Source: Bacteroidia bacterium
GTDB lineage: Bacteria > Bacteroidota > Bacteroidia > AKYH767-A > OLB10
NCBI GenBank assembly: GCA_016788065.1
Contig: JAEUTI010000008.1
Span: forward strand, 62,428 to 126,427
DNA: 64,000 bases
Direction of reading: 5' to 3'
Shown: one piece after another, positions 5,119 through 11,103 of the stretch
Position numbering within the stretch: position 1 is the stretch's first letter
How the letters are laid out: each line of letters starts with the position of its first letter
Notes under the pieces: generated by a model
What the model was told of the DNA's origin: nothing
Seen by the model: only the letters and a program-made list of their open reading frames with translations
The model's database searches: none
Translations under genes and position numbers: made by a program

Positions 5119-6696
5119 ATGCAACAACTCAATAATTTAAAGTGCTTTCTTCTAATATTCATGATTTTCATACTCTTTGGAAATCAACATGTTTATGGAA
5201 CGCATGCTGCCGGATCAGATTTGACATATACTTGTTTGGGAGGAAATCAATACAGACTTGAGGCGACTTTTTATCGCGATTGCAATGGGATTCCTGAACC
5301 TGCTTTTATCACCTTTTACTACCGTTCTGCATCATGTGGTTTTAATTACAACGTGACAGCAACTCCAGATTCAGGCTCCGGAGTAGAAATTTCTGTGCCA
5401 TGCAGTTCTGCAGTATCTACATGCAATGGAGGAACTGAATCCGGAGTTAGAAAATTTGTCTATCATGCTACTATTAACCTTCCCGGTAATTGTGCCGATT
5501 GGGTCTTTAGTTATTCGGTATGTTGTCGTAATTGCACCATCTCAACTATACAGGACCCGTGTGGAAGTGGTTCAAATCTTTATGTTGAAGCAAGGTTGAA
5601 TAATTTGAACGCAATCTGTAACACATCACCTGTTTTTTCCAATAACCCAATTGCATTCGTATGTCTAGGCCAAAATTTCAATTTCAATCAGGGCGTTTAT
5701 GATGCTGATGGTGACTCTTTATCATACTCTTTTATCACCCCAAAAACAGGTCCCACAACTCAGGTACAATTTATTGCTCCTGCATCTGTCTCTGCGCCAC
5801 TTGCTTCTTCTACACCATTTCTGATTAACCCGGTGACCGGCGATATTAATTTTACACCTTCTCAAATACAGGTAGGAATTCTTGCCGTTTTAGTTAAGGA
5901 ATTTCGGAATGGTGTATTTATTGGAAGTGTAATCAGAGACATTCAGGTTTATACTACCTCTTGTAACAATGCTATCCCTACTGCTTCCGGCATAAACGGT
6001 ACAACAAATTATGATATTACAGTATGTCCCGGACAAACAATTTGCTTTACAGTATTCACATCAGATGCCGATTCCACTCAATCAGTTTCAGCTTTCATTA
6101 ACAATACTATTCCGGGAAGTACAATAACCAACTCTGGTGGATCCAGACCCGAAATTAATTTTTGCTGGACGCCTGATTTCGATGATGTGGATTTGTTGCC
6201 AAATAGTTTCACTATCACAGTACGCGATAATAGTTGCCCATCAAACGGTCTTCAAACATTCTCATACAATATTTTTGTACCATCACCATATTTTACCACA
6301 AACACTCAAACTGTTTCCTGTTTTGCAGGAAGTGATGGAATTGCTGTTGCAACTCCCGTCTATGGAAATCTTTATACTTATAGCTGGAACACATCACCCG
6401 TGCAGAACACAGCTACTGCAACAGGACTTACAGCCGGCACTTATGCACTGACCGTTAGTGATACTTCAGGATGCTCTTTAACTGTTCCAGTGGTGATTGA
6501 ACAACCTTTACCTTTGCAAGTCAGCGGTAGTGTAACTTCGGCTTCCTGTGGTTCATGTAATGGTGCCATTACAACAGCTGTATCTGGTGGTAATCCAGGC
6601 TATAGTTTTTTATGGAACGACGGTAACCCCACTCCTTTCAGAACGAATTTATGTGCTGGAATATATACTGTAACAGTTACCGATTTTAACGGATGA
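5119..6696 (+). CDS. SprB-repeat cell-surface adhesin, N-terminal fragment ending at an in-frame TGA
   Basis: Signal peptide MQQLNNLKCFLLIFMIFILFGNQHVYG and a Cys-rich N-terminal region. It is followed by tandem repeats of about 80 aa with the SprB-repeat signature (…C.G..DG.I…SGG..PY.Y.WS.G……L.AG.Y.VTVTD..GC…). It ends …TVTDFNG*, where the consensus has Cys. Confidence 0.75.
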   Translation: MQQLNNLKCFLLIFMIFILFGNQHVYGTHAAGSDLTYTCLGGNQYRLEATFYRDCNGIPEPAFITFYYRSASCGFNYNVTATPDSGSGVEISVPCSSAVSTCNGGTESGVRKFVYHATINLPGNCADWVFSYSVCCRNCTISTIQDPCGSGSNLYVEARLNNLNAICNTSPVFSNNPIAFVCLGQNFNFNQGVYDADGDSLSYSFITPKTGPTTQVQFIAPASVSAPLASSTPFLINPVTGDINFTPSQIQVGILAVLVKEFRNGVFIGSVIRDIQVYTTSCNNAIPTASGINGTTNYDITVCPGQTICFTVFTSDADSTQSVSAFINNTIPGSTITNSGGSRPEINFCWTPDFDDVDLLPNSFTITVRDNSCPSNGLQTFSYNIFVPSPYFTTNTQTVSCFAGSDGIAVATPVYGNLYTYSWNTSPVQNTATATGLTAGTYALTVSDTSGCSLTVPVVIEQPLPLQVSGSVTSASCGSCNGAITTAVSGGNPGYSFLWNDGNPTPFRTNLCAGIYTVTVTDFNG

Positions 6697-6927: not shown

Positions 6928-8589
6928 ATGATTCAGGTTCAAATTACAGAACCTGATCCGGTTTTTATTTCAGCTACTATTGCGAACGTAACCTGTTATG
7001 GTTCTAGTGACGGACTTGTTGATGTTTCAGTTTCAGGTGGAACCGGACCCTACGATTATTCCTGGTCTGATGGTAGTGTATCGGAAGATATTTCAATGCT
7101 TGCTACCGGAAATTATGTGCTTACAGTCTCCGATTTATTCGGTTGCATAGCACAGGAACAATTTCTGATTGCTCAACCTGATCCGATTATTGTTTCTTTT
7201 ACATCTACTGATGCAACATGTTTCGGAAGCACAGATGGTATGATAAATGTTTCTGCAAACGGTGGTATTGCACCATATAGTTACCTCTGGCAAAATGGCT
7301 CAACAGATACAACGTTGCAGCATCTTGCATCAGGAACGTATATGCTTACCGTTACCGATAATCATTCATGTTCGATTTTAACAGCCTTTGCAATTTCTCA
7401 ACCCGCTGAAATAGCTGTTCAGTTTCAGCAGACTTTTAACCCATGTATCGCCGGAACGGGTTCTGTCACAACGGTAATTTCAGGAGGTATTGATCCTTTA
7501 ATTTATAGCTGGTCTGATGGAAGTTCTGCTTCATCGGCAACTGGATTAAACCCCGGTGTGTATACGTTAACAATTACGGATGCTTTGGGTTGTATGGTTT
7601 CAGACACTATCAGCGTTGGAGGCATTACCAATCCTATGGCACTTGCATTTAATTCTGTTTCTGCCAGCTGCAGTGATTCTGATGACGGAAGTGCTGATCT
7701 AACAATTTCCGGCGGACAGGAACCCTATTCATATTTGTGGTCGAATGGAAATACCGCCGAAGATTTATTTTTAGTTATAGGTGGAAATTATGATGTTACA
7801 GTAACAGATGCCAATGGATGCACTGTTTCCGGAAATGTACTTATCGAAGCTCCTGCACCAATGGCAGTTTCATTTAATGTTATTCCTGTTGGATGTGGTG
7901 TAACTAAAGGATCGATAACAGCAATTGCTGCCGGTGGTACACCGGGCTACTCCTATACATGGAATATTGGTGAAACCACATCTTTTATTGATGACCTGGA
8001 TCCCGGAATTTTTACAGTAACCATATCAGATATCAATGGTTGTAGTGTTACAGATTCAGTTGAATTAGTTGCCTATCCTGAACTAATTGCCACTGTTGAA
8101 ACCGGAGATGCTTCGTATTCGGGTGCTGCAGATGGGTCTATTGATCTTTCTGTGAACGGTGGTGCTATACCTTACTTGTATGAGTGGTCTGATGGCTCTG
8201 TTACAGAAGATTTAATTGGCGTGACGGCAGGTATCTATACCGTAACTATCACAGACTTCTCCGGCTGTCAGTTAACTCTTACAGCAGAAGTATTGAATAC
8301 ATCTCTTACATCTGTAAATAATGAGGAAACCAATCAACCTCAAATTTTGATTTCGCAACTGGGAGGAAATACTTTCCTTGAGGTAACTGCATCCGGTAAT
8401 GAAAATTACAACCTTGAATTGTATGATAATTCCGGTCGGCTTATCAGTGGATTTTTAACAGGATACATGCAAATAGGGGAGAGCCGGAAAATTGAAATCC
8501 CTGCAAAAAATATTGCTTCCGGTTTGTATATAATTGTGCTTCGTGGAAATGATACAGTAAAAAGCATGAAGATGATGCTTCGCAACTAA
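6928..8589 (+). CDS. SprB-repeat adhesin, C-terminal fragment with a type-A T9SS C-terminal sorting domain
   Basis: Same frame as 5119..6696. SprB-repeat homology (FVATVIETPVSCTGGNDGVADISITGGTGPFEFLWSDGQTTEDA…) already starts at about 6697, directly after the TGA, with the first ATG at 6928. Eight or more further SprB repeats follow. The last ~80 aa (…NTFLEVTASGNENYNLELYDNSGRLISGF…IASGLYIIVLRGNDTVKSMKMMLRN) match the type-A T9SS CTD pattern. Confidence 0.7.
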   Translation: MIQVQITEPDPVFISATIANVTCYGSSDGLVDVSVSGGTGPYDYSWSDGSVSEDISMLATGNYVLTVSDLFGCIAQEQFLIAQPDPIIVSFTSTDATCFGSTDGMINVSANGGIAPYSYLWQNGSTDTTLQHLASGTYMLTVTDNHSCSILTAFAISQPAEIAVQFQQTFNPCIAGTGSVTTVISGGIDPLIYSWSDGSSASSATGLNPGVYTLTITDALGCMVSDTISVGGITNPMALAFNSVSASCSDSDDGSADLTISGGQEPYSYLWSNGNTAEDLFLVIGGNYDVTVTDANGCTVSGNVLIEAPAPMAVSFNVIPVGCGVTKGSITAIAAGGTPGYSYTWNIGETTSFIDDLDPGIFTVTISDINGCSVTDSVELVAYPELIATVETGDASYSGAADGSIDLSVNGGAIPYLYEWSDGSVTEDLIGVTAGIYTVTITDFSGCQLTLTAEVLNTSLTSVNNEETNQPQILISQLGGNTFLEVTASGNENYNLELYDNSGRLISGFLTGYMQIGESRKIEIPAKNIASGLYIIVLRGNDTVKSMKMMLRN

Positions 8590-8614
8590 TATTTGTTTTG
8601 ATTACTTTTTGCCG

Positions 8615-8650
8615 ATCCCTGCCAGTTGAGTGGCAGGGATTTTTGTTTTA
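8615..8650 (+). terminator. Rho-independent terminator after the adhesin gene
   Basis: ATCCCTGCCA-gttgag-TGGCAGGGAT is a perfect 10-bp stem, followed by TTTTGTTTT. Confidence 0.55.
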
Positions 8651-8758
8651 ACGCAATTATTGACCAGAACATTAAAACTTCGGGTTGCCCTTATATACCT
8701 CTATTTGGAATTAATTTAAAAAGGTAGTCTGAATATTAAACTGTCAATTTACCTAAAT

Positions 8759-9352
8759 TTGCATCAAATGTGGTCAATTGTAAAATATTGCATCCCGGCG
8801 GTCCTGTTTGCCGGTTTGTTTGTTGGGTGTGGAAATAACCTCAGCGAGCAATTGAGTATCCTGGAAATGCCAGCACTCTCAGGAACTACTGTTTCTTTAA
8901 AAAAAGAAATGGGTTCCACCGCTACAGTTTATCTTTTCTTATCACCCGATTGCCCAATGTGCATCAGTTCTTCCGGAGACATACGTGAACTGGCGGAATC
9001 TTTCACCTCGCAAGGAATCTCGTTCTTAACAGTTTATCCGGGTACTTTTTATTCAGTTTCCGAAATAGATTCTTTCCATACCCATTATAATATCGGTTTA
9101 CCTGCTATTCTTGATACTGCATTTGTGCTTACGAAATTGTTGGATGCAACAGTAACGCCGGAAGTTGTTGTACTTAGTCCTGAATACGAAACATTATACT
9201 CAGGTGCTATCAATGAAAGAGCCGCGAGTCTGGGGAGAAAACGTCAGTTGGTTGGGGAGCATTATTTGAAAAAAGTTCTCGAAGCTGTTCTTTCGAAGAA
9301 AGCAATTCCGTTCAAGCGTGTTAATCCTGTTGGATGTTTTATTGAATCATGA
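8759..9352 (+). CDS. TlpA/ResA-like thiol-disulfide oxidoreductase lipoprotein (thioredoxin fold, CPMC active site)
   Basis: Lipoprotein signal …AVLFAGLFVGCGNN. It has the CxxC motif CPMC in a redoxin-like context (TVYLFLSPDCPMCISS). Its stop overlaps the next start (ATGATG), which is translational coupling. Confidence 0.7.
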   Translation: MHQMWSIVKYCIPAVLFAGLFVGCGNNLSEQLSILEMPALSGTTVSLKKEMGSTATVYLFLSPDCPMCISSSGDIRELAESFTSQGISFLTVYPGTFYSVSEIDSFHTHYNIGLPAILDTAFVLTKLLDATVTPEVVVLSPEYETLYSGAINERAASLGRKRQLVGEHYLKKVLEAVLSKKAIPFKRVNPVGCFIES

Positions 9353-10761
9353 TGAAAAATTATTTTCAACTAAAATATGCGATTGTAAAACAACTGATAC
9401 TTGTTGTCACTGGTTTTGCAATTTTAATCTCTTGTAATTCCGGCAAACAACAAACGGATCTAACTTTTAATAAGGAAATTGCTCCTTTGATTCATAAGCA
9501 CTGTACAACTTGTCACCGGCCTGGTGAAGCCGGACCATTTAATTTGATTACCTATAAAGATGTAAGAAAAAAAGCCAAAACTATTGCTCGCGTAGTTGAA
9601 ACGGGTGTCATGCCACCATGGCCGGCAGATCCGGAATACACTCATTTTGTCGGGGAGAAAATTTTAACTAATGCAGAAAAAGAAATGATTGTAACATGGG
9701 TCAATGCTGGTTGTCCCGAAGGAAAGGCTTCAGACCTGAAACCAGCTCCCATCTATCCGGAAGGTTCACAATTAGGAAAGCCTGATGTTGTAATTCGAAT
9801 GGAGGAACCGTTCACAATTCCCGGTGATAACCGTGATCGGTTTATGGTTTTTAAGATTCCTTATGAGTTGGATAGAGATACTTTTCTGAGAATGGTTGAA
9901 TATGTTCCGGGCAACCGAAAACTTTCGCATCATGTAAATGGTCATATTATTCAATACGACGACAAGCTTAAAAAAGATGTGTTTGTTGGTCCCCGATATG
10001 TTGACCGGGAAGATGCAGGAACTCTTGACTCCTGTTACAAGTTTTTGAAATTACTTAATGATGATGAGACCTATCCATTACTTACTCCTAGTGTATTCAA
10101 TTTTTTACCAGGTGTTTTACCTCAACAATATCCTGATGGAATAGGAGGGTACCGTATTAAAAAGAAAGGCGCTATCCTGATGCGTGATCTTCACTATGGA
10201 CCTACTCCGGTTTCTGAAACAGATCAGCCACATGTCAATTTGTTTTTTAGTCCAAAGCCACCATCGCGTCCTTTTATGGAAACGCAATTGGGTACTCTGG
10301 GAATTTCCGAAATTGTACCTCCTCTGTTAATTCCACCCGACACCGTCATGAAATTTGTAACCAAAGCATTAATTTATCATGATATATCATTGGTTACTAT
10401 AAATCCACATATGCATTTGTTGGGTAAATCATTCCTGGCATATGCGATTACTCCACAAGCCGACACCATTCGGTTGGTAAGAATTCCAAAGTGGGATTTC
10501 AGGTGGCAATATTTCTATACATATCCAACTATGCTTAAAATACCCGCGGGATCAACTATTGTCGCCGAAGGAGTATTTGATAATACCAAAAACAATCCAA
10601 ATAATCCCTTTAGTCCACCCCGGGAAATCACCGGTTTAGGTGGCAGCATGCGAACAACAGATGAAATGTTTCAACTCATTCTCACTTTTTTACCTTATTT
10701 CCCGGGTGATGAACAAATTCGTCTTGATAACATTTTGCCGGGTCAAACCGGATTGGAATGA
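9349..10761 (+). CDS. Lipoprotein with an N-terminal cytochrome c domain fused to a copper type II (PHM/DBH-like) monooxygenase-like domain
   Basis: Lipobox ILISCNSG. It has the heme motif CTTCH with flanking PGEAGPFNL. Candidate Cu-site ligands run in PHM/DBH order: SHHVNGH…DLHYG (CuH-like), then INPHMHLLG…TTDEMFQLIL (CuM-like H-x-H…M, compare TTDEMC…YY in DBH/PHM). Domain assignment is from recalled motifs. Confidence 0.5.
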   Translation: MMKNYFQLKYAIVKQLILVVTGFAILISCNSGKQQTDLTFNKEIAPLIHKHCTTCHRPGEAGPFNLITYKDVRKKAKTIARVVETGVMPPWPADPEYTHFVGEKILTNAEKEMIVTWVNAGCPEGKASDLKPAPIYPEGSQLGKPDVVIRMEEPFTIPGDNRDRFMVFKIPYELDRDTFLRMVEYVPGNRKLSHHVNGHIIQYDDKLKKDVFVGPRYVDREDAGTLDSCYKFLKLLNDDETYPLLTPSVFNFLPGVLPQQYPDGIGGYRIKKKGAILMRDLHYGPTPVSETDQPHVNLFFSPKPPSRPFMETQLGTLGISEIVPPLLIPPDTVMKFVTKALIYHDISLVTINPHMHLLGKSFLAYAITPQADTIRLVRIPKWDFRWQYFYTYPTMLKIPAGSTIVAEGVFDNTKNNPNNPFSPPREITGLGGSMRTTDEMFQLILTFLPYFPGDEQIRLDNILPGQTGLE

Positions 10762-10812: not shown

Positions 10813-11103
10813 ATGAATTTCTTGAAATATATTAAAAAATGGATTTTCCTGTTACTTCTGGTGATTCCTTTGGTTGGGATGGCTCAGGATGATAAGAAGC
10901 CATCTAAAAAACAGAAAAAGGCTGATCAAAAGAAGGAACAACGAGCGAAAGAATCTAAGAAATCTGAATTCCAAAGCAAGAAGCAGCATCTTAAATTACA
11001 GGATAAAGCTACCCGTAAACGAATGAAAAAACACAAACGCAAAGGAATGCGTTATGTTTCTACCAAGCCAAATTTCTTTCAGCGATTATTTAATACCCGC
11101 TGA
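10813..11103 (+). CDS. Small secreted lysine-rich protein (hypothetical)
   Basis: Signal peptide MNFLKYIKKWIFLLLLVIPLVGMA, then about 70 aa very rich in K, R and Q. Its stop abuts the smc stop codon on the other strand. Confidence 0.4.
   Translation: MNFLKYIKKWIFLLLLVIPLVGMAQDDKKPSKKQKKADQKKEQRAKESKKSEFQSKKQHLKLQDKATRKRMKKHKRKGMRYVSTKPNFFQRLFNTR

What the first reader, a model, noticed from the sequence alone, without database searches (positions are those of the whole stretch)
8759..10761. Translationally coupled redoxin lipoprotein plus a lipoprotein fusing cytochrome c to a PHM/DBH-like copper monooxygenase domain
The second protein carries a single CxxCH haem site near its N-terminus. 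His and Met residues then follow in the order of the CuH (HH…H) and CuM (H-x-H…M, TTDEM) sites of peptidylglycine alpha-hydroxylating monooxygenase and dopamine beta-monooxygenase. A covalently attached cytochrome c would be a plausible built-in electron donor in place of ascorbate. The upstream TlpA/ResA-like CxxC lipoprotein, whose stop overlaps the next start as ATGATG, is the type of periplasmic reductase that keeps apocytochrome c or copper-site cysteines reduced. The pair therefore looks like a self-contained periplasmic oxidative module. Its substrate is unknown.
Basis: partly seen in the sequence, partly recalled or inferred. Interest (0 to 1): 0.65.

Follow-up and report, generated by a model that had tools for sequence, protein, structure and literature searches.

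The report
Bacterial haem-tethered PHM/DBH-like copper enzyme pair
A two-gene operon in a Bacteroidia genome encodes a lipoprotein that joins a cytochrome c domain to a two-copper catalytic core, previously listed only for animal hormone-making enzymes, together with a dedicated thioredoxin-like partner; the family is very large in bacteria and apparently unstudied.

Summary
Two overlapping genes (ATGA overlap at 9349-9352) encode a thioredoxin-fold lipoprotein and a 470-aa lipoprotein.

The second protein has one CxxCH haem site and a conserved distal Met. It also has a PHM/DBH-type core: Foldseek to PHM gives E 2.4e-11, and a family profile hits DBH at 2.8e-11 and PHM at 8e-9. Five of the six copper ligands align residue for residue (H194, H195, H282, H354, H356). 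M440 sits in a conserved DEM motif. Of 133 diverse representatives, 132 keep all six copper ligands and 133 keep the haem ligands.

The redoxin link holds in any gene order. It is upstream, downstream, convergent or fused in about 60-70% of 160 loci.

- Its conserved cysteines are the first Cys of the CxxC and a C-terminal 'GC'. The second CxxC cysteine is kept in only 53 of 91.
- The copper domain has no conserved cysteines.
- 38 of 101 diverse relatives are T9SS-exported, so the family is not strictly periplasmic.

Most likely this is an ascorbate-independent copper monooxygenase fed by its own haem, with the redoxin acting in maturation. Substrate unknown. I found no literature on it.

The parts
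8614..8641 (+). Terminator-like hairpin ending the upstream SprB-repeat gene. It marks the pair as a separate transcription unit.
   Evidence: 11-bp stem with 6 GC pairs, followed by a T-run.
8747..8754 (+). TAAATTTG, a possible Bacteroidetes-type -7 promoter element (TAnnTTTG) 13 nt before the ATG at 8768.
   Evidence: Sequence. The consensus is recalled from memory, so this is a lead only.
8768..9352 (+). Thioredoxin-fold (AhpC/TSA-type) lipoprotein of 194 aa. An alternative TTG start lies at 8759.
   Evidence: Pfam AhpC-TSA 31 bits against a cut-off of 26. AF2 pLDDT 89.4. Foldseek to 2cvb, 3u5r and 2ywi gives E about 1e-13 and TM 0.74-0.78. Homologues are 194 aa.
8828..8830 (+). Lipobox cysteine of the redoxin (LFVG-C; C21 counting from the ATG start).
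   Evidence: by inspection.
8951..8962 (+). CPMC active-site motif. The first Cys (C62) is conserved; the second (C65) is not.
   Evidence: C62 in 90 of 91. Position 65 is C in 53, S in 26 and A in 11.
9332..9337 (+). C-terminal Gly-Cys (C190) of the 'VGCFIE' motif, invariant in partner redoxins.
   Evidence: 91 of 91.
9349..9352 (+). ATGA overlap between the stop of gene 1 and the start of gene 2.
   Evidence: In 47 genome loci the gene gaps cluster between -19 and +37 bp, with 13 at exactly -4.
9349..10761 (+). Lipoprotein of 470 aa: cytochrome c domain plus PHM/DBH-like two-copper core.
9433..9435 (+). Lipobox cysteine C29 (ILIS-C).
   Evidence: Invariant in the 32 close homologues.
9460..9723 (+). 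Mono-haem cytochrome c domain, about residues 38-125. CTTCH lies at 9502-9516 and the distal Met88 (MPPW) at 9610-9612.
   Evidence: Sub-threshold Pfam hits to Cytochrome_CBB3 (21.3 bits) and Haem_bd (23.7 bits). Relatives score above threshold (34.1 and 37.1 bits). C, C, H and M are kept in 133 of 133.
9766..10248 (+). N-terminal beta-sandwich of the PHM-like core with the CuH-type ligands: H194 and H195 (9928-9933) and H282 (10192-10194).
   Evidence: The profile alignment places them on VHHMLLF and LQVHYGD of PHM and on VHHMEVF and LEVHYHN of DBH. Conservation is 143, 142 and 145 of 150.
10249..10734 (+). C-terminal beta-sandwich with the CuM-type ligands: H354 and H356 (10408-10416) and M440 in DEM (10660-10668).
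   Evidence: Pfam PF03712 covers residues 339-416. PHMHLLGK aligns with VHTHHLGK of PHM and LHTHLTGR of DBH. E439 is in 144 and M440 in 142 of 150.

Best explanation
Gene 2 encodes an extracytoplasmic lipoprotein. A low-spin His/Met cytochrome c domain is tethered to the N-terminus of a non-coupled two-copper monooxygenase core of the PHM/DBH type.

Proposed mechanism:
1. The haem takes single electrons from a periplasmic donor.
2. It passes them to the CuH-type site (H194, H195, H282).
3. CuH reduces the CuM-type site (H354, H356, M440).
4. At CuM, O2 is activated and a C-H bond of an unknown substrate is hydroxylated.

The haem would therefore stand in for ascorbate.

Gene 1 encodes a dedicated thioredoxin-fold partner. 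Its working cysteines are C62 and the C-terminal C190. It most likely acts in the periplasm during maturation of the enzyme. It may keep the CxxCH haem-attachment cysteines reduced, with C190 as the resolving cysteine, or it may help load copper. It is less likely to be a steady-state substrate or donor.

Shown here: the domain architecture, the fold, the ligand conservation, and the gene linkage and fusions.

Inferred: metal occupancy, the haem-to-copper electron path, oxygenase chemistry and the redoxin's exact step.
For: Fold and homology:
- The AF2 model has pLDDT 84.
- Its 29 best PDB matches are all PHM or DBH, with best E 2.4e-11.
- The 101-sequence family profile hits DBH at 2.8e-11 and PHM at 8.4e-9, with five ligands aligned.
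- One relative alone hits PHM at 1e-4.
- Pfam PF03712 matches 64 of 101 members and PF01082 matches 22 of 101.

Ligands:
- 132 of 133 representatives keep all six copper ligands.
- 133 of 133 keep C, C, H and M of the haem site.
- His/Met six-coordination is the signature of an electron-transfer haem rather than a catalytic one (established knowledge).

Linkage to the redoxin:
- It lies immediately upstream in 47 of 80 genome loci.
- In a second, more diverse set it is upstream in 30 loci, downstream in 5, convergent in 5 and fused in 7.
- Fusion proteins P0122 and P0137 exist.
- Starting from distant redoxins, 3 of 5 lead to a cyt c-PHM gene.

Maturation role:
- T9SS-exported enzymes still have an adjacent redoxin that has no export tail: 19 of 30 with full flanks, and L088. 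The redoxin must therefore act before export.
- The only conserved cysteines in the enzyme are those of the CxxCH.
- The redoxin resembles ResA, DsbE and StoA and keeps the cis-Pro and a CcmG-like Pro-Glu.
Against: - No metal content, haem attachment or activity has been measured.
- The model coordinates could not be read, so the haem-to-CuH distance and the geometry of the copper sites are unverified.
- The alignments to PHM and DBH stop just before the Met ligand. M440 = M314 therefore rests on the shared DEM motif and on invariance.
- The window protein only touches the PF03712 threshold and misses PF01082.
- For T9SS-exported relatives no cellular electron donor is obvious, which weakens 'respiratory chain to haem' as a general scheme.
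- About a third of loci lack a redoxin neighbour. One fusion (P0259) has a redoxin domain with neither cysteine. The partner is therefore dispensable or replaceable.
- The PHM substrate-carboxylate residue R240 is not conserved; it is N352 here and variable across the family. The substrate therefore cannot be transferred from PHM.
Confidence: 0.55

Rival explanations
1. The redoxin is the steady-state reductant. Electrons would flow from cytoplasmic thioredoxin through CcdA/DsbD to the redoxin dithiol (C62/C190), then to haem c, CuH and CuM. The pair would then be a self-contained, thiol-driven periplasmic monooxygenase.
For: One-to-one operon with overlapping genes. Recurrent fusions in the order redoxin, cytochrome c, copper core. 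There is a precedent of a periplasmic Trx-like domain fused to the enzyme it reduces: the PilB N-domain structures 2h30, 2fy6 and 2jzr appear among the fold hits, and the MsrA/B mechanism is recalled from memory.
Against: A two-electron dithiol feeding a one-electron haem has no clear precedent. T9SS-exported enzymes keep the partner although it has no export tail (L088). The P0259 fusion lacks both cysteines. About 30% of loci have no partner.
Confidence: 0.15
2. The redoxin is a Sco-like copper(I) chaperone. It would bind Cu(I) between C62 and C190 and metallate the CuH and CuM sites.
For: The invariant pair is C62 plus C190, not a CxxC. Thioredoxin-fold copper chaperones exist (Sco1/SenC, from memory). 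The enzyme needs two coppers. Four loci place a secreted HMA-domain protein, a Cys/His-rich protein and a TonB-dependent receptor next to the pair.
Against: There is no Sco CxxxC...H motif and no conserved His or Met in the redoxin. The conserved cis-Pro-Glu and the ResA/DsbE-like fold point to thiol-disulfide chemistry. Proximity of C62 and C190 in the model could not be measured.
Confidence: 0.2
3. The copper core is not a substrate hydroxylase. It would be an oxidase or peroxide-handling module, for example reducing O2 to H2O2 or H2O using electrons from the haem, with the peroxiredoxin-like partner removing peroxide.
For: The redoxin passes the AhpC/TSA model and resembles PrxQ/BCP structures. 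The PHM substrate-binding residues are not kept. No substrate-related gene is linked.
Against: The redoxin lacks the peroxiredoxin PxxxTxxC context; its conserved Cys aligns with the first Cys of the thioredoxin CxxC (by inspection). Full retention of the CuM His2Met site, which in PHM/DBH does C-H activation, in 132 of 133 members argues for conserved oxygenase chemistry. Family-specific invariant motifs (WDFxWQ, YDNTxxNPxNPxxPP) suggest a defined pocket.
Confidence: 0.08
4. The resemblance is superficial. The protein would be a jelly-roll binding domain with chance His and Met residues beside an unrelated haem motif.
For: The window protein's own Pfam scores are marginal. phmmer of the single sequence against the PDB finds nothing significant.
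Against: Profile-level sequence homology to DBH and PHM, fold match probability 1.00 and near-universal ligand conservation.
Confidence: 0.02

Closest known systems
Peptidylglycine alpha-hydroxylating monooxygenase (PHM) and dopamine beta-monooxygenase (DBH), with tyramine beta-monooxygenase and MOXD1 (Pfam PF01082 + PF03712)
   Same: The same two beta-sandwich catalytic core (Foldseek E 2.4e-11). The same ligand pattern, HH...H and HxH...(DE)M, with five positions aligned by profile.
   Different: Bacterial, and a lipoprotein or T9SS cargo. An N-terminal c-type cytochrome sits where DBH carries a DOMON domain and PHM carries nothing. None of the conserved cysteines or disulfides of the animal enzymes are present. 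PHM R240 is replaced. There is an extra 40-50 residue insert after the HH motif and a longer NPxNPxxPP loop before DEM. A 2020 review lists PHM and DBM as eukaryote-only copper proteins (PMC7435645).
Cytochrome c-tethered copper enzymes (three-domain NirK with a fused cytochrome c; caa3 oxidase subunit II). Recalled from memory.
   Same: The design principle: a mono-haem c domain covalently tethered to a copper redox enzyme as a built-in one-electron donor.
   Different: The copper domain is an unrelated cupredoxin fold, the chemistry differs (nitrite or O2 reduction), and there is no thioredoxin-fold partner.
Uncharacterised thioredoxin-like proteins 2cvb/2ywo (Thermus thermophilus), 2ywi (Geobacillus kaustophilus) and 3u5r (SMc02350)
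   Same: Best structural matches to the redoxin over about 168 residues, including the C-terminal extension (TM 0.74-0.78, rmsd 2.2-2.5 Å).
   Different: Only 21-23% identity, and their functions are unknown. Whether they share the C-terminal GC cysteine was not checked.
ResA, CcmG/DsbE, TlpA and StoA periplasmic thiol-disulfide reductases
   Same: Thioredoxin fold with an N-terminal membrane or lipid anchor. The cis-Pro is kept, and a Pro-Glu as in CcmG. Foldseek E 1e-10 to 1e-8. A logical role in reducing apocytochrome CxxCH.
   Different: The second cysteine of the CxxC is missing in 37 of 91 partner redoxins, and an invariant C-terminal cysteine is added. The motif is DCPxC/S rather than WCxxC.

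Membership tests
PHM/DBH copper type II monooxygenases | Two-domain beta-sandwich catalytic fold | tested here: met
   Foldseek: the top 29 PDB hits are PHM or DBH, probability 1.00, TM (target) up to 0.60. Model pLDDT 84.
PHM/DBH copper type II monooxygenases | C-terminal domain model PF03712 at or above the gathering score | tested here: met
   23.1 bits against a cut-off of 23 for the window protein, which is marginal. 64 of 101 diverse relatives match at E<=1e-3, with a best value of 1.4e-11.
PHM/DBH copper type II monooxygenases | N-terminal domain model PF01082 | tested here: inconclusive
   The window protein has no hit. 22 of 101 relatives match, and P0247 scores 34.1 against a cut-off of 30. 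The family profile aligns this domain to DBH 175-430 and PHM 11-246.
PHM/DBH copper type II monooxygenases | CuH ligands (PHM H107, H108, H172) | tested here: met
   H194 and H195 align with VHHMLLF, and H282 with LQVHYGD. Conserved in 143, 142 and 145 of 150.
PHM/DBH copper type II monooxygenases | CuM histidines (PHM H242, H244) | tested here: met
   PHMHLLGK aligns with VHTHHLGK. H354 is in 147 of 150 and H356 in 148 of 150.
PHM/DBH copper type II monooxygenases | CuM methionine (PHM M314, in the DEM motif) | tested here: inconclusive
   The alignments end before this residue. E439-M440 is invariant in 30 of 30 and M440 is in 142 of 144 non-gap positions. The PHM 'DEMC' context is recalled from memory. 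A relative (L084) reads DEMC.
PHM/DBH copper type II monooxygenases | Copper actually bound; ascorbate as reductant; substrate hydroxylation | not testable with these tools
   Needs purified protein.
PHM specifically | Peptidylglycine carboxylate anchor (R240) | tested here: not met
   The aligned position is N352, and it varies across the family (F, N, A, S, Y, Q).
c-type cytochrome (His/Met mono-haem) | CxxCH motif with a conserved distal Met | tested here: met
   C52, C55, H56 and M88 are kept in 133 of 133.
c-type cytochrome (His/Met mono-haem) | Pfam cytochrome c model above threshold | tested here: inconclusive
   Window protein: Cytochrome_CBB3 21.3 and Haem_bd 23.7, both below the cut-off of 27. 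Relatives pass (34.1 and 37.1 bits). The profile also touches the hydrazine synthase haem site and cytochromes c.
TlpA/ResA/CcmG thiol-disulfide reductases | Thioredoxin fold with a cis-Pro loop | tested here: met
   Foldseek to ResA, DsbE, DsbF and StoA gives E 1e-10 to 1e-8. P131 is kept in 91 of 91.
TlpA/ResA/CcmG thiol-disulfide reductases | Conserved CxxC redox pair | tested here: not met
   The motif is present in the window copy (CPMC). Across partner redoxins the second Cys is kept in only 53 of 91; the conserved pair is C62 plus C190.
Peroxiredoxins (AhpC/TSA) | Pfam AhpC-TSA model | tested here: met
   31 bits against a cut-off of 26.
Peroxiredoxins (AhpC/TSA) | Peroxidatic Cys in a PxxxT/SxxC context | tested here: not met
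   By inspection of A3, position -3 is variable and there is no Pro at -7. The conserved Cys is the first Cys of the CxxC position.
Sco1/SenC copper chaperones | CxxxC plus a distal His | tested here: not met
   No CxxxC and no conserved His in A3.
Bacterial lipoproteins | Signal peptide ending in a lipobox Cys | tested here: met
   LFVG-C and ILIS-C by inspection. C29 is invariant in the 32 close homologues. No predictor was run.

The most novel reading that the evidence does not exclude
These proteins would be a widespread bacterial class of ascorbate-independent PHM/DBH-type monooxygenases. A tethered cytochrome c supplies the electrons and a special two-cysteine thioredoxin-fold protein assembles or services the enzyme. 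The natural substrates would be envelope or secreted molecules. One candidate is the small, very basic secreted proteins encoded beside the gene in many Bacteroidia, some of which end in an '(L/I)(F/Y)G-basic-basic' motif reminiscent of animal amidation signals. Another candidate is glycine-containing lipids. That would mean peptide or lipid alpha-hydroxylation or amidation chemistry, thought to be an animal invention, has a large bacterial counterpart.
Probability: 0.12. Interest if true: 0.85.

Novelty: new variant of a known kind. Interest (0 to 1): 0.62.

Why it matters
PHM and DBH are textbook animal enzymes. Their electron supply (ascorbate, recycled by cytochrome b561) and their long-range Cu-to-Cu electron transfer are still debated. 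A 2020 survey of copper proteomes lists them as eukaryote-only (PMC7435645).

This work shows a bacterial family with 3,050 clusters at 50% identity at E<=1e-30 and up to 16,791 at E<=1e-3. The larger figure may include hits to the haem domain alone. The family keeps both copper sites and always carries its own c-type haem.

If it is active, it offers three things:
- a soluble, genetically tractable model in which electron entry can be triggered through the haem;
- a new extracytoplasmic oxygenase chemistry in Bacteroidota, Acidobacteriota and other phyla;
- a new thioredoxin-fold maturation factor.

It would also add an item to bacterial copper-protein inventories.

Tried and rejected
Searches that found nothing useful:
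- Single-sequence phmmer against the PDB gave nothing significant.
- The 32-sequence close-homologue profile against the PDB gave nothing. Only the 101-sequence diverse profile reached DBH and PHM.
- Three attempts to extend the alignment across the Met ligand failed: a C-terminal sub-profile, a 58-aa peptide and a fragment of a relative.
- NCBIfam has no model for either protein.
- Eight literature searches found no paper on bacterial cytochrome c-PHM/DBH fusions.

Tools not available:
- Model coordinates are not exposed, so clustering of the ligands and the C62-C190 distance could not be measured.

Leads that did not hold up:
- A homology search with the small K-rich neighbour gave only 5 close hits, all in the same synteny (redoxin, enzyme, small ORF, convergent SMC). 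It therefore adds no independent support for a functional link.
- Clustering all neighbouring ORFs in 80 diverse loci found no third partner present in more than 4 loci.

Interpretations rejected:
- Peroxiredoxin and Sco assignments for the redoxin were rejected on motif grounds.
- H199, M355 and M434 were rejected as ligands because they are not conserved.
Full report
**1. What is in the sequence**

Two ORFs on the + strand occupy 8759/8768..9352 and 9349..10761. The TGA stop of the first gene lies inside the ATGATG that starts the second, an ATGA overlap.

A terminator-like hairpin at 8614-8641 closes the preceding gene, which encodes a SprB-repeat protein with a T9SS tail. Downstream lie a small ORF (10813..11103) and a convergent SMC gene. 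The pair therefore looks like its own two-gene unit.

The window enzyme is 100% identical to a hypothetical protein of a Bacteroidia MAG. Database relatives of the first protein are 194 aa, which favours the ATG at 8768 over the TTG at 8759. Both proteins have a signal peptide that ends in a lipobox cysteine (LFVG-C and ILIS-C29). C29 is invariant among the 32 close homologues.

**2. The second protein**

*Window protein alone.* Pfam gives only marginal hits: Cu2_monoox_C at 23.1 bits against a cut-off of 23, Haem_bd at 23.7 and Cytochrome_CBB3 at 21.3, both below their cut-off of 27. There is no hit to the N-terminal model PF01082.

*Stronger evidence from structure and profiles.*
- An AlphaFold2 model built from 32 homologues has pLDDT 84.3 and pTM 0.76.
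- Its 29 best PDB matches are all PHM or human DBH (best E 2.4e-11, probability 1.00, target TM up to 0.60). The next matches are generic viral jelly rolls at E>1e-5.
- A profile of close homologues finds nothing in the PDB.
- A profile of 101 diverse members (28-50% identity to the query) hits DBH at E 2.8e-11 and PHM at 8.4e-9.

*Ligand alignment.*
- The family HH (H194, H195) aligns with VHHMLLF of PHM and VHHMEVF of DBH.
- H282 aligns with LQVHYGD and LEVHYHN.
- PH354MH356LLGK aligns with VHTHHLGK and LHTHLTGR.

These are the CuH and CuM histidines. PDB entry titles for the H107A, H108A, H172A and M314I mutants, including 'H172A PHM (CuH absent, CuM present)', corroborate the numbering.

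The alignments stop just before the methionine ligand, and three attempts to extend them failed. M440 = M314 therefore rests on three things: the shared DEM motif (the PHM context is from memory), its position in the last strands, and its invariance.

*Family size and conservation.*
- The exhaustive profile search finds 16,791 clusters at 50% identity at E<=1e-3 and 3,050 at E<=1e-30. The larger number may include hits to the haem domain alone.
- Among the best 150 representatives, 133 cover all key positions. Of these, 132 keep H194, H195, H282, H354, H356 and M440, and 133 keep C52, C55, H56 and M88.
- H199, M355 and M434 are not conserved, so they are not ligands.
- The PHM carboxylate anchor R240 corresponds to N352 and is variable. 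PHM's substrate cannot be assumed.
- Apart from the lipobox and the CxxCH, there are no conserved cysteines.
- Family-specific invariant motifs (WDFxWQ, YDNTxxNPxNPxxPP) suggest a pocket of its own.

*Architectures.*
- The N-terminal CxxCH is present in essentially all full-length members.
- 38 of 101 diverse members carry a T9SS C-terminal sorting domain. Others add PKD, Ig, EF-hand, TPR or Kunitz modules.
- The family therefore includes both lipoproteins, like the window copy, and exported or surface forms.

**3. The first protein**

*Family assignment.*
- It passes the AhpC/TSA model at 31 bits against a cut-off of 26.
- Its AlphaFold2 model has pLDDT 89.4.
- The model is closest to three uncharacterised thioredoxin-like structures: 2cvb/2ywo, 3u5r and 2ywi (E about 1e-13, TM 0.74-0.78).
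- Next come M. tuberculosis DsbE/DsbF, ResA, StoA and PrxQ.

*Conserved cysteines.* The window copy has CPMC, but that pair is not the conserved feature. Across 91 redoxins adjacent to or fused with a cytochrome c-PHM gene:
- the first Cys (C62) is present in 90;
- the cis-Pro (P131), Y144 and a C-terminal Gly-Cys (C190, 'VGCFIE') are present in all 91;
- the second CxxC cysteine is present in only 53, with Ser in 26 and Ala in 11.

The peroxiredoxin PxxxTxxC context and the Sco CxxxC...H motif are both absent. This is a distinct two-cysteine thioredoxin-fold subfamily, not a canonical TlpA or ResA.

**4. Linkage of the two genes**

*Genome set.* In 80 genome loci of close relatives, a redoxin homologue lies immediately upstream on the same strand in 47. 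The gene gaps fall mostly between -19 and +37 bp, and 13 are exact ATGA overlaps. The other loci, about 30, lack it.

*Metagenome set.* In a second, more diverse set of 80 loci seeded with a T9SS-type member:
- upstream in 30;
- downstream on the same strand in 5;
- convergent in 5;
- fused into the same ORF in 7;
- absent with full flanks in 20;
- absent but with flanks too short to judge in 13.

*Other evidence.*
- Fusion proteins also appear among the cluster representatives. P0122 is redoxin, cytochrome c, copper core. P0137 contains that module twice.
- Starting from five distant redoxins, three are followed by a cytochrome c-PHM gene. One of these has a TPR tail and one a T9SS tail.
- Clustering of all neighbouring ORFs showed no third partner in more than 4 loci.

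Linkage that holds in any gene order, together with fusions, is strong evidence for a functional partnership. The partnership is facultative.

**5. How it probably works**

*The enzyme.* The His/Met haem is of the electron-transfer type. It is always present and sits N-terminal to the CuH-bearing domain. The most economical reading is a tethered one-electron donor that replaces ascorbate, as cytochrome c domains do in three-domain NirK and caa3 oxidases (memory). O2 would be activated at CuM.

*The redoxin.* Two observations point to a maturation role in the periplasm:
- Enzymes destined for T9SS export still have an adjacent redoxin that lacks an export tail (19 of 30 with full flanks; L088). 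The redoxin must act before export.
- The only conserved cysteines in the enzyme are those of the CxxCH.

Reduction of the apocytochrome, with C190 as the resolving cysteine, is therefore the leading idea.

*Alternatives for the redoxin.*
- A Sco-like copper-loading role. The invariant Cys pair fits this. So does a metal-uptake-like cluster in four loci: an HMA-domain protein, a Cys/His-rich protein and a TonB-dependent receptor.
- A steady-state thiol-to-haem electron supply.

One fusion (P0259) has lost both cysteines, and a third of loci lack the partner. The redoxin is therefore helpful rather than essential.

None of the chemistry has been demonstrated.

**6. Comparison and novelty**

The catalytic core is a member of the PHM/DBH superfamily by fold, by profile and by ligands.

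New features:
- bacterial origin;
- the obligatory c-type haem;
- lipoprotein or T9SS targeting;
- loss of the animal disulfides and of the peptidylglycine anchor;
- the dedicated C62/C190 redoxin.

Public databases name some members 'cytochrome c', 'monooxygenase' or 'copper type II ascorbate-dependent monooxygenase-like', so the domain hit is not new. Eight full-text searches found no study of the family. A 2020 review lists PHM and DBM only under eukaryotes. I rate it a new variant of a known kind.

**7. Verdict**

- The core interpretation, a cytochrome c fused to a PHM/DBH-like copper domain with a conserved redoxin partner, is supported.
- The TlpA/ResA-CxxC description, the 'copper-site cysteines' and the strictly periplasmic picture need correction.
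- The electron-donor role of the haem is plausible but untested.
- Interest 0.62.

Noticed in passing
window 10813..11103 (+): A 96-aa secreted, extremely Lys/Arg-rich ORF starts 51 bp after the enzyme gene. It is the only such ORF in the 64-kb window. In 80 related loci there are 32 such ORFs within 1.5 kb of the enzyme gene and 2 further out (0.147 against 0.0045 per kb). They occur in two arrangements. Type A is downstream on the same strand. Type B is upstream on the opposite strand, is a lipoprotein, and often ends in '(L/I)(F/Y)G-basic-basic'. There is no Pfam match. Homologues found are few and share the same synteny, so a functional link is unproven.
   Followed up: partly
L097, L103, L104, L136 (for example L103:2105-2560 and L104:3-3171, - strand): In four metagenome loci three genes lie divergently next to the redoxin-enzyme pair: a secreted HMA (heavy-metal-associated) domain protein (39.2 bits), a Cys/His-rich small protein and a TonB-dependent receptor. 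Together they look like a metal-uptake cluster.
   Followed up: partly
P0259 (633 aa) and P0122 (627 aa), natural fusions: In P0122 the fused redoxin domain reads CPIS...IGCFIE, followed by a linker of about 15 residues before the CxxCH. In P0259 the redoxin domain has lost both the active-site and the C-terminal cysteines (SPESPIE; no GC). This suggests it can be catalytically dead there.
   Followed up: no
P0137 (1251 aa), P0124 (1064 aa); L107: Some proteins contain the whole module twice in one chain. P0137 is two copies of redoxin, cytochrome c and copper core. P0124 is two copies of cytochrome c and copper core with EF-hands. L107 seems to hold two paralogues in tandem.
   Followed up: no
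window 5119..6696 and 6928..8589 (+): Two consecutive ORFs both carry SprB repeats. Only the second has a T9SS C-terminal sorting domain. They may be one large adhesin-like gene interrupted between 6697 and 6927.
   Followed up: no
window 8747..8768: TAAATTTG, which fits the Bacteroidetes -7 promoter consensus TAnnTTTG (from memory), lies 13 nt before the ATG at 8768 and overlaps the listed TTG start at 8759. Together with the 194-aa homologues this favours 8768 as the true start, with a very short leader.
   Followed up: partly
L021, L027 (Acidobacteriota MAGs): In the acidobacterial loci the enzyme gene follows a gene of about 1,330 aa for a protein that starts like a carboxypeptidase-regulatory/TonB-dependent receptor, not a redoxin. 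In L014 the redoxin is downstream on the opposite strand.
   Followed up: no
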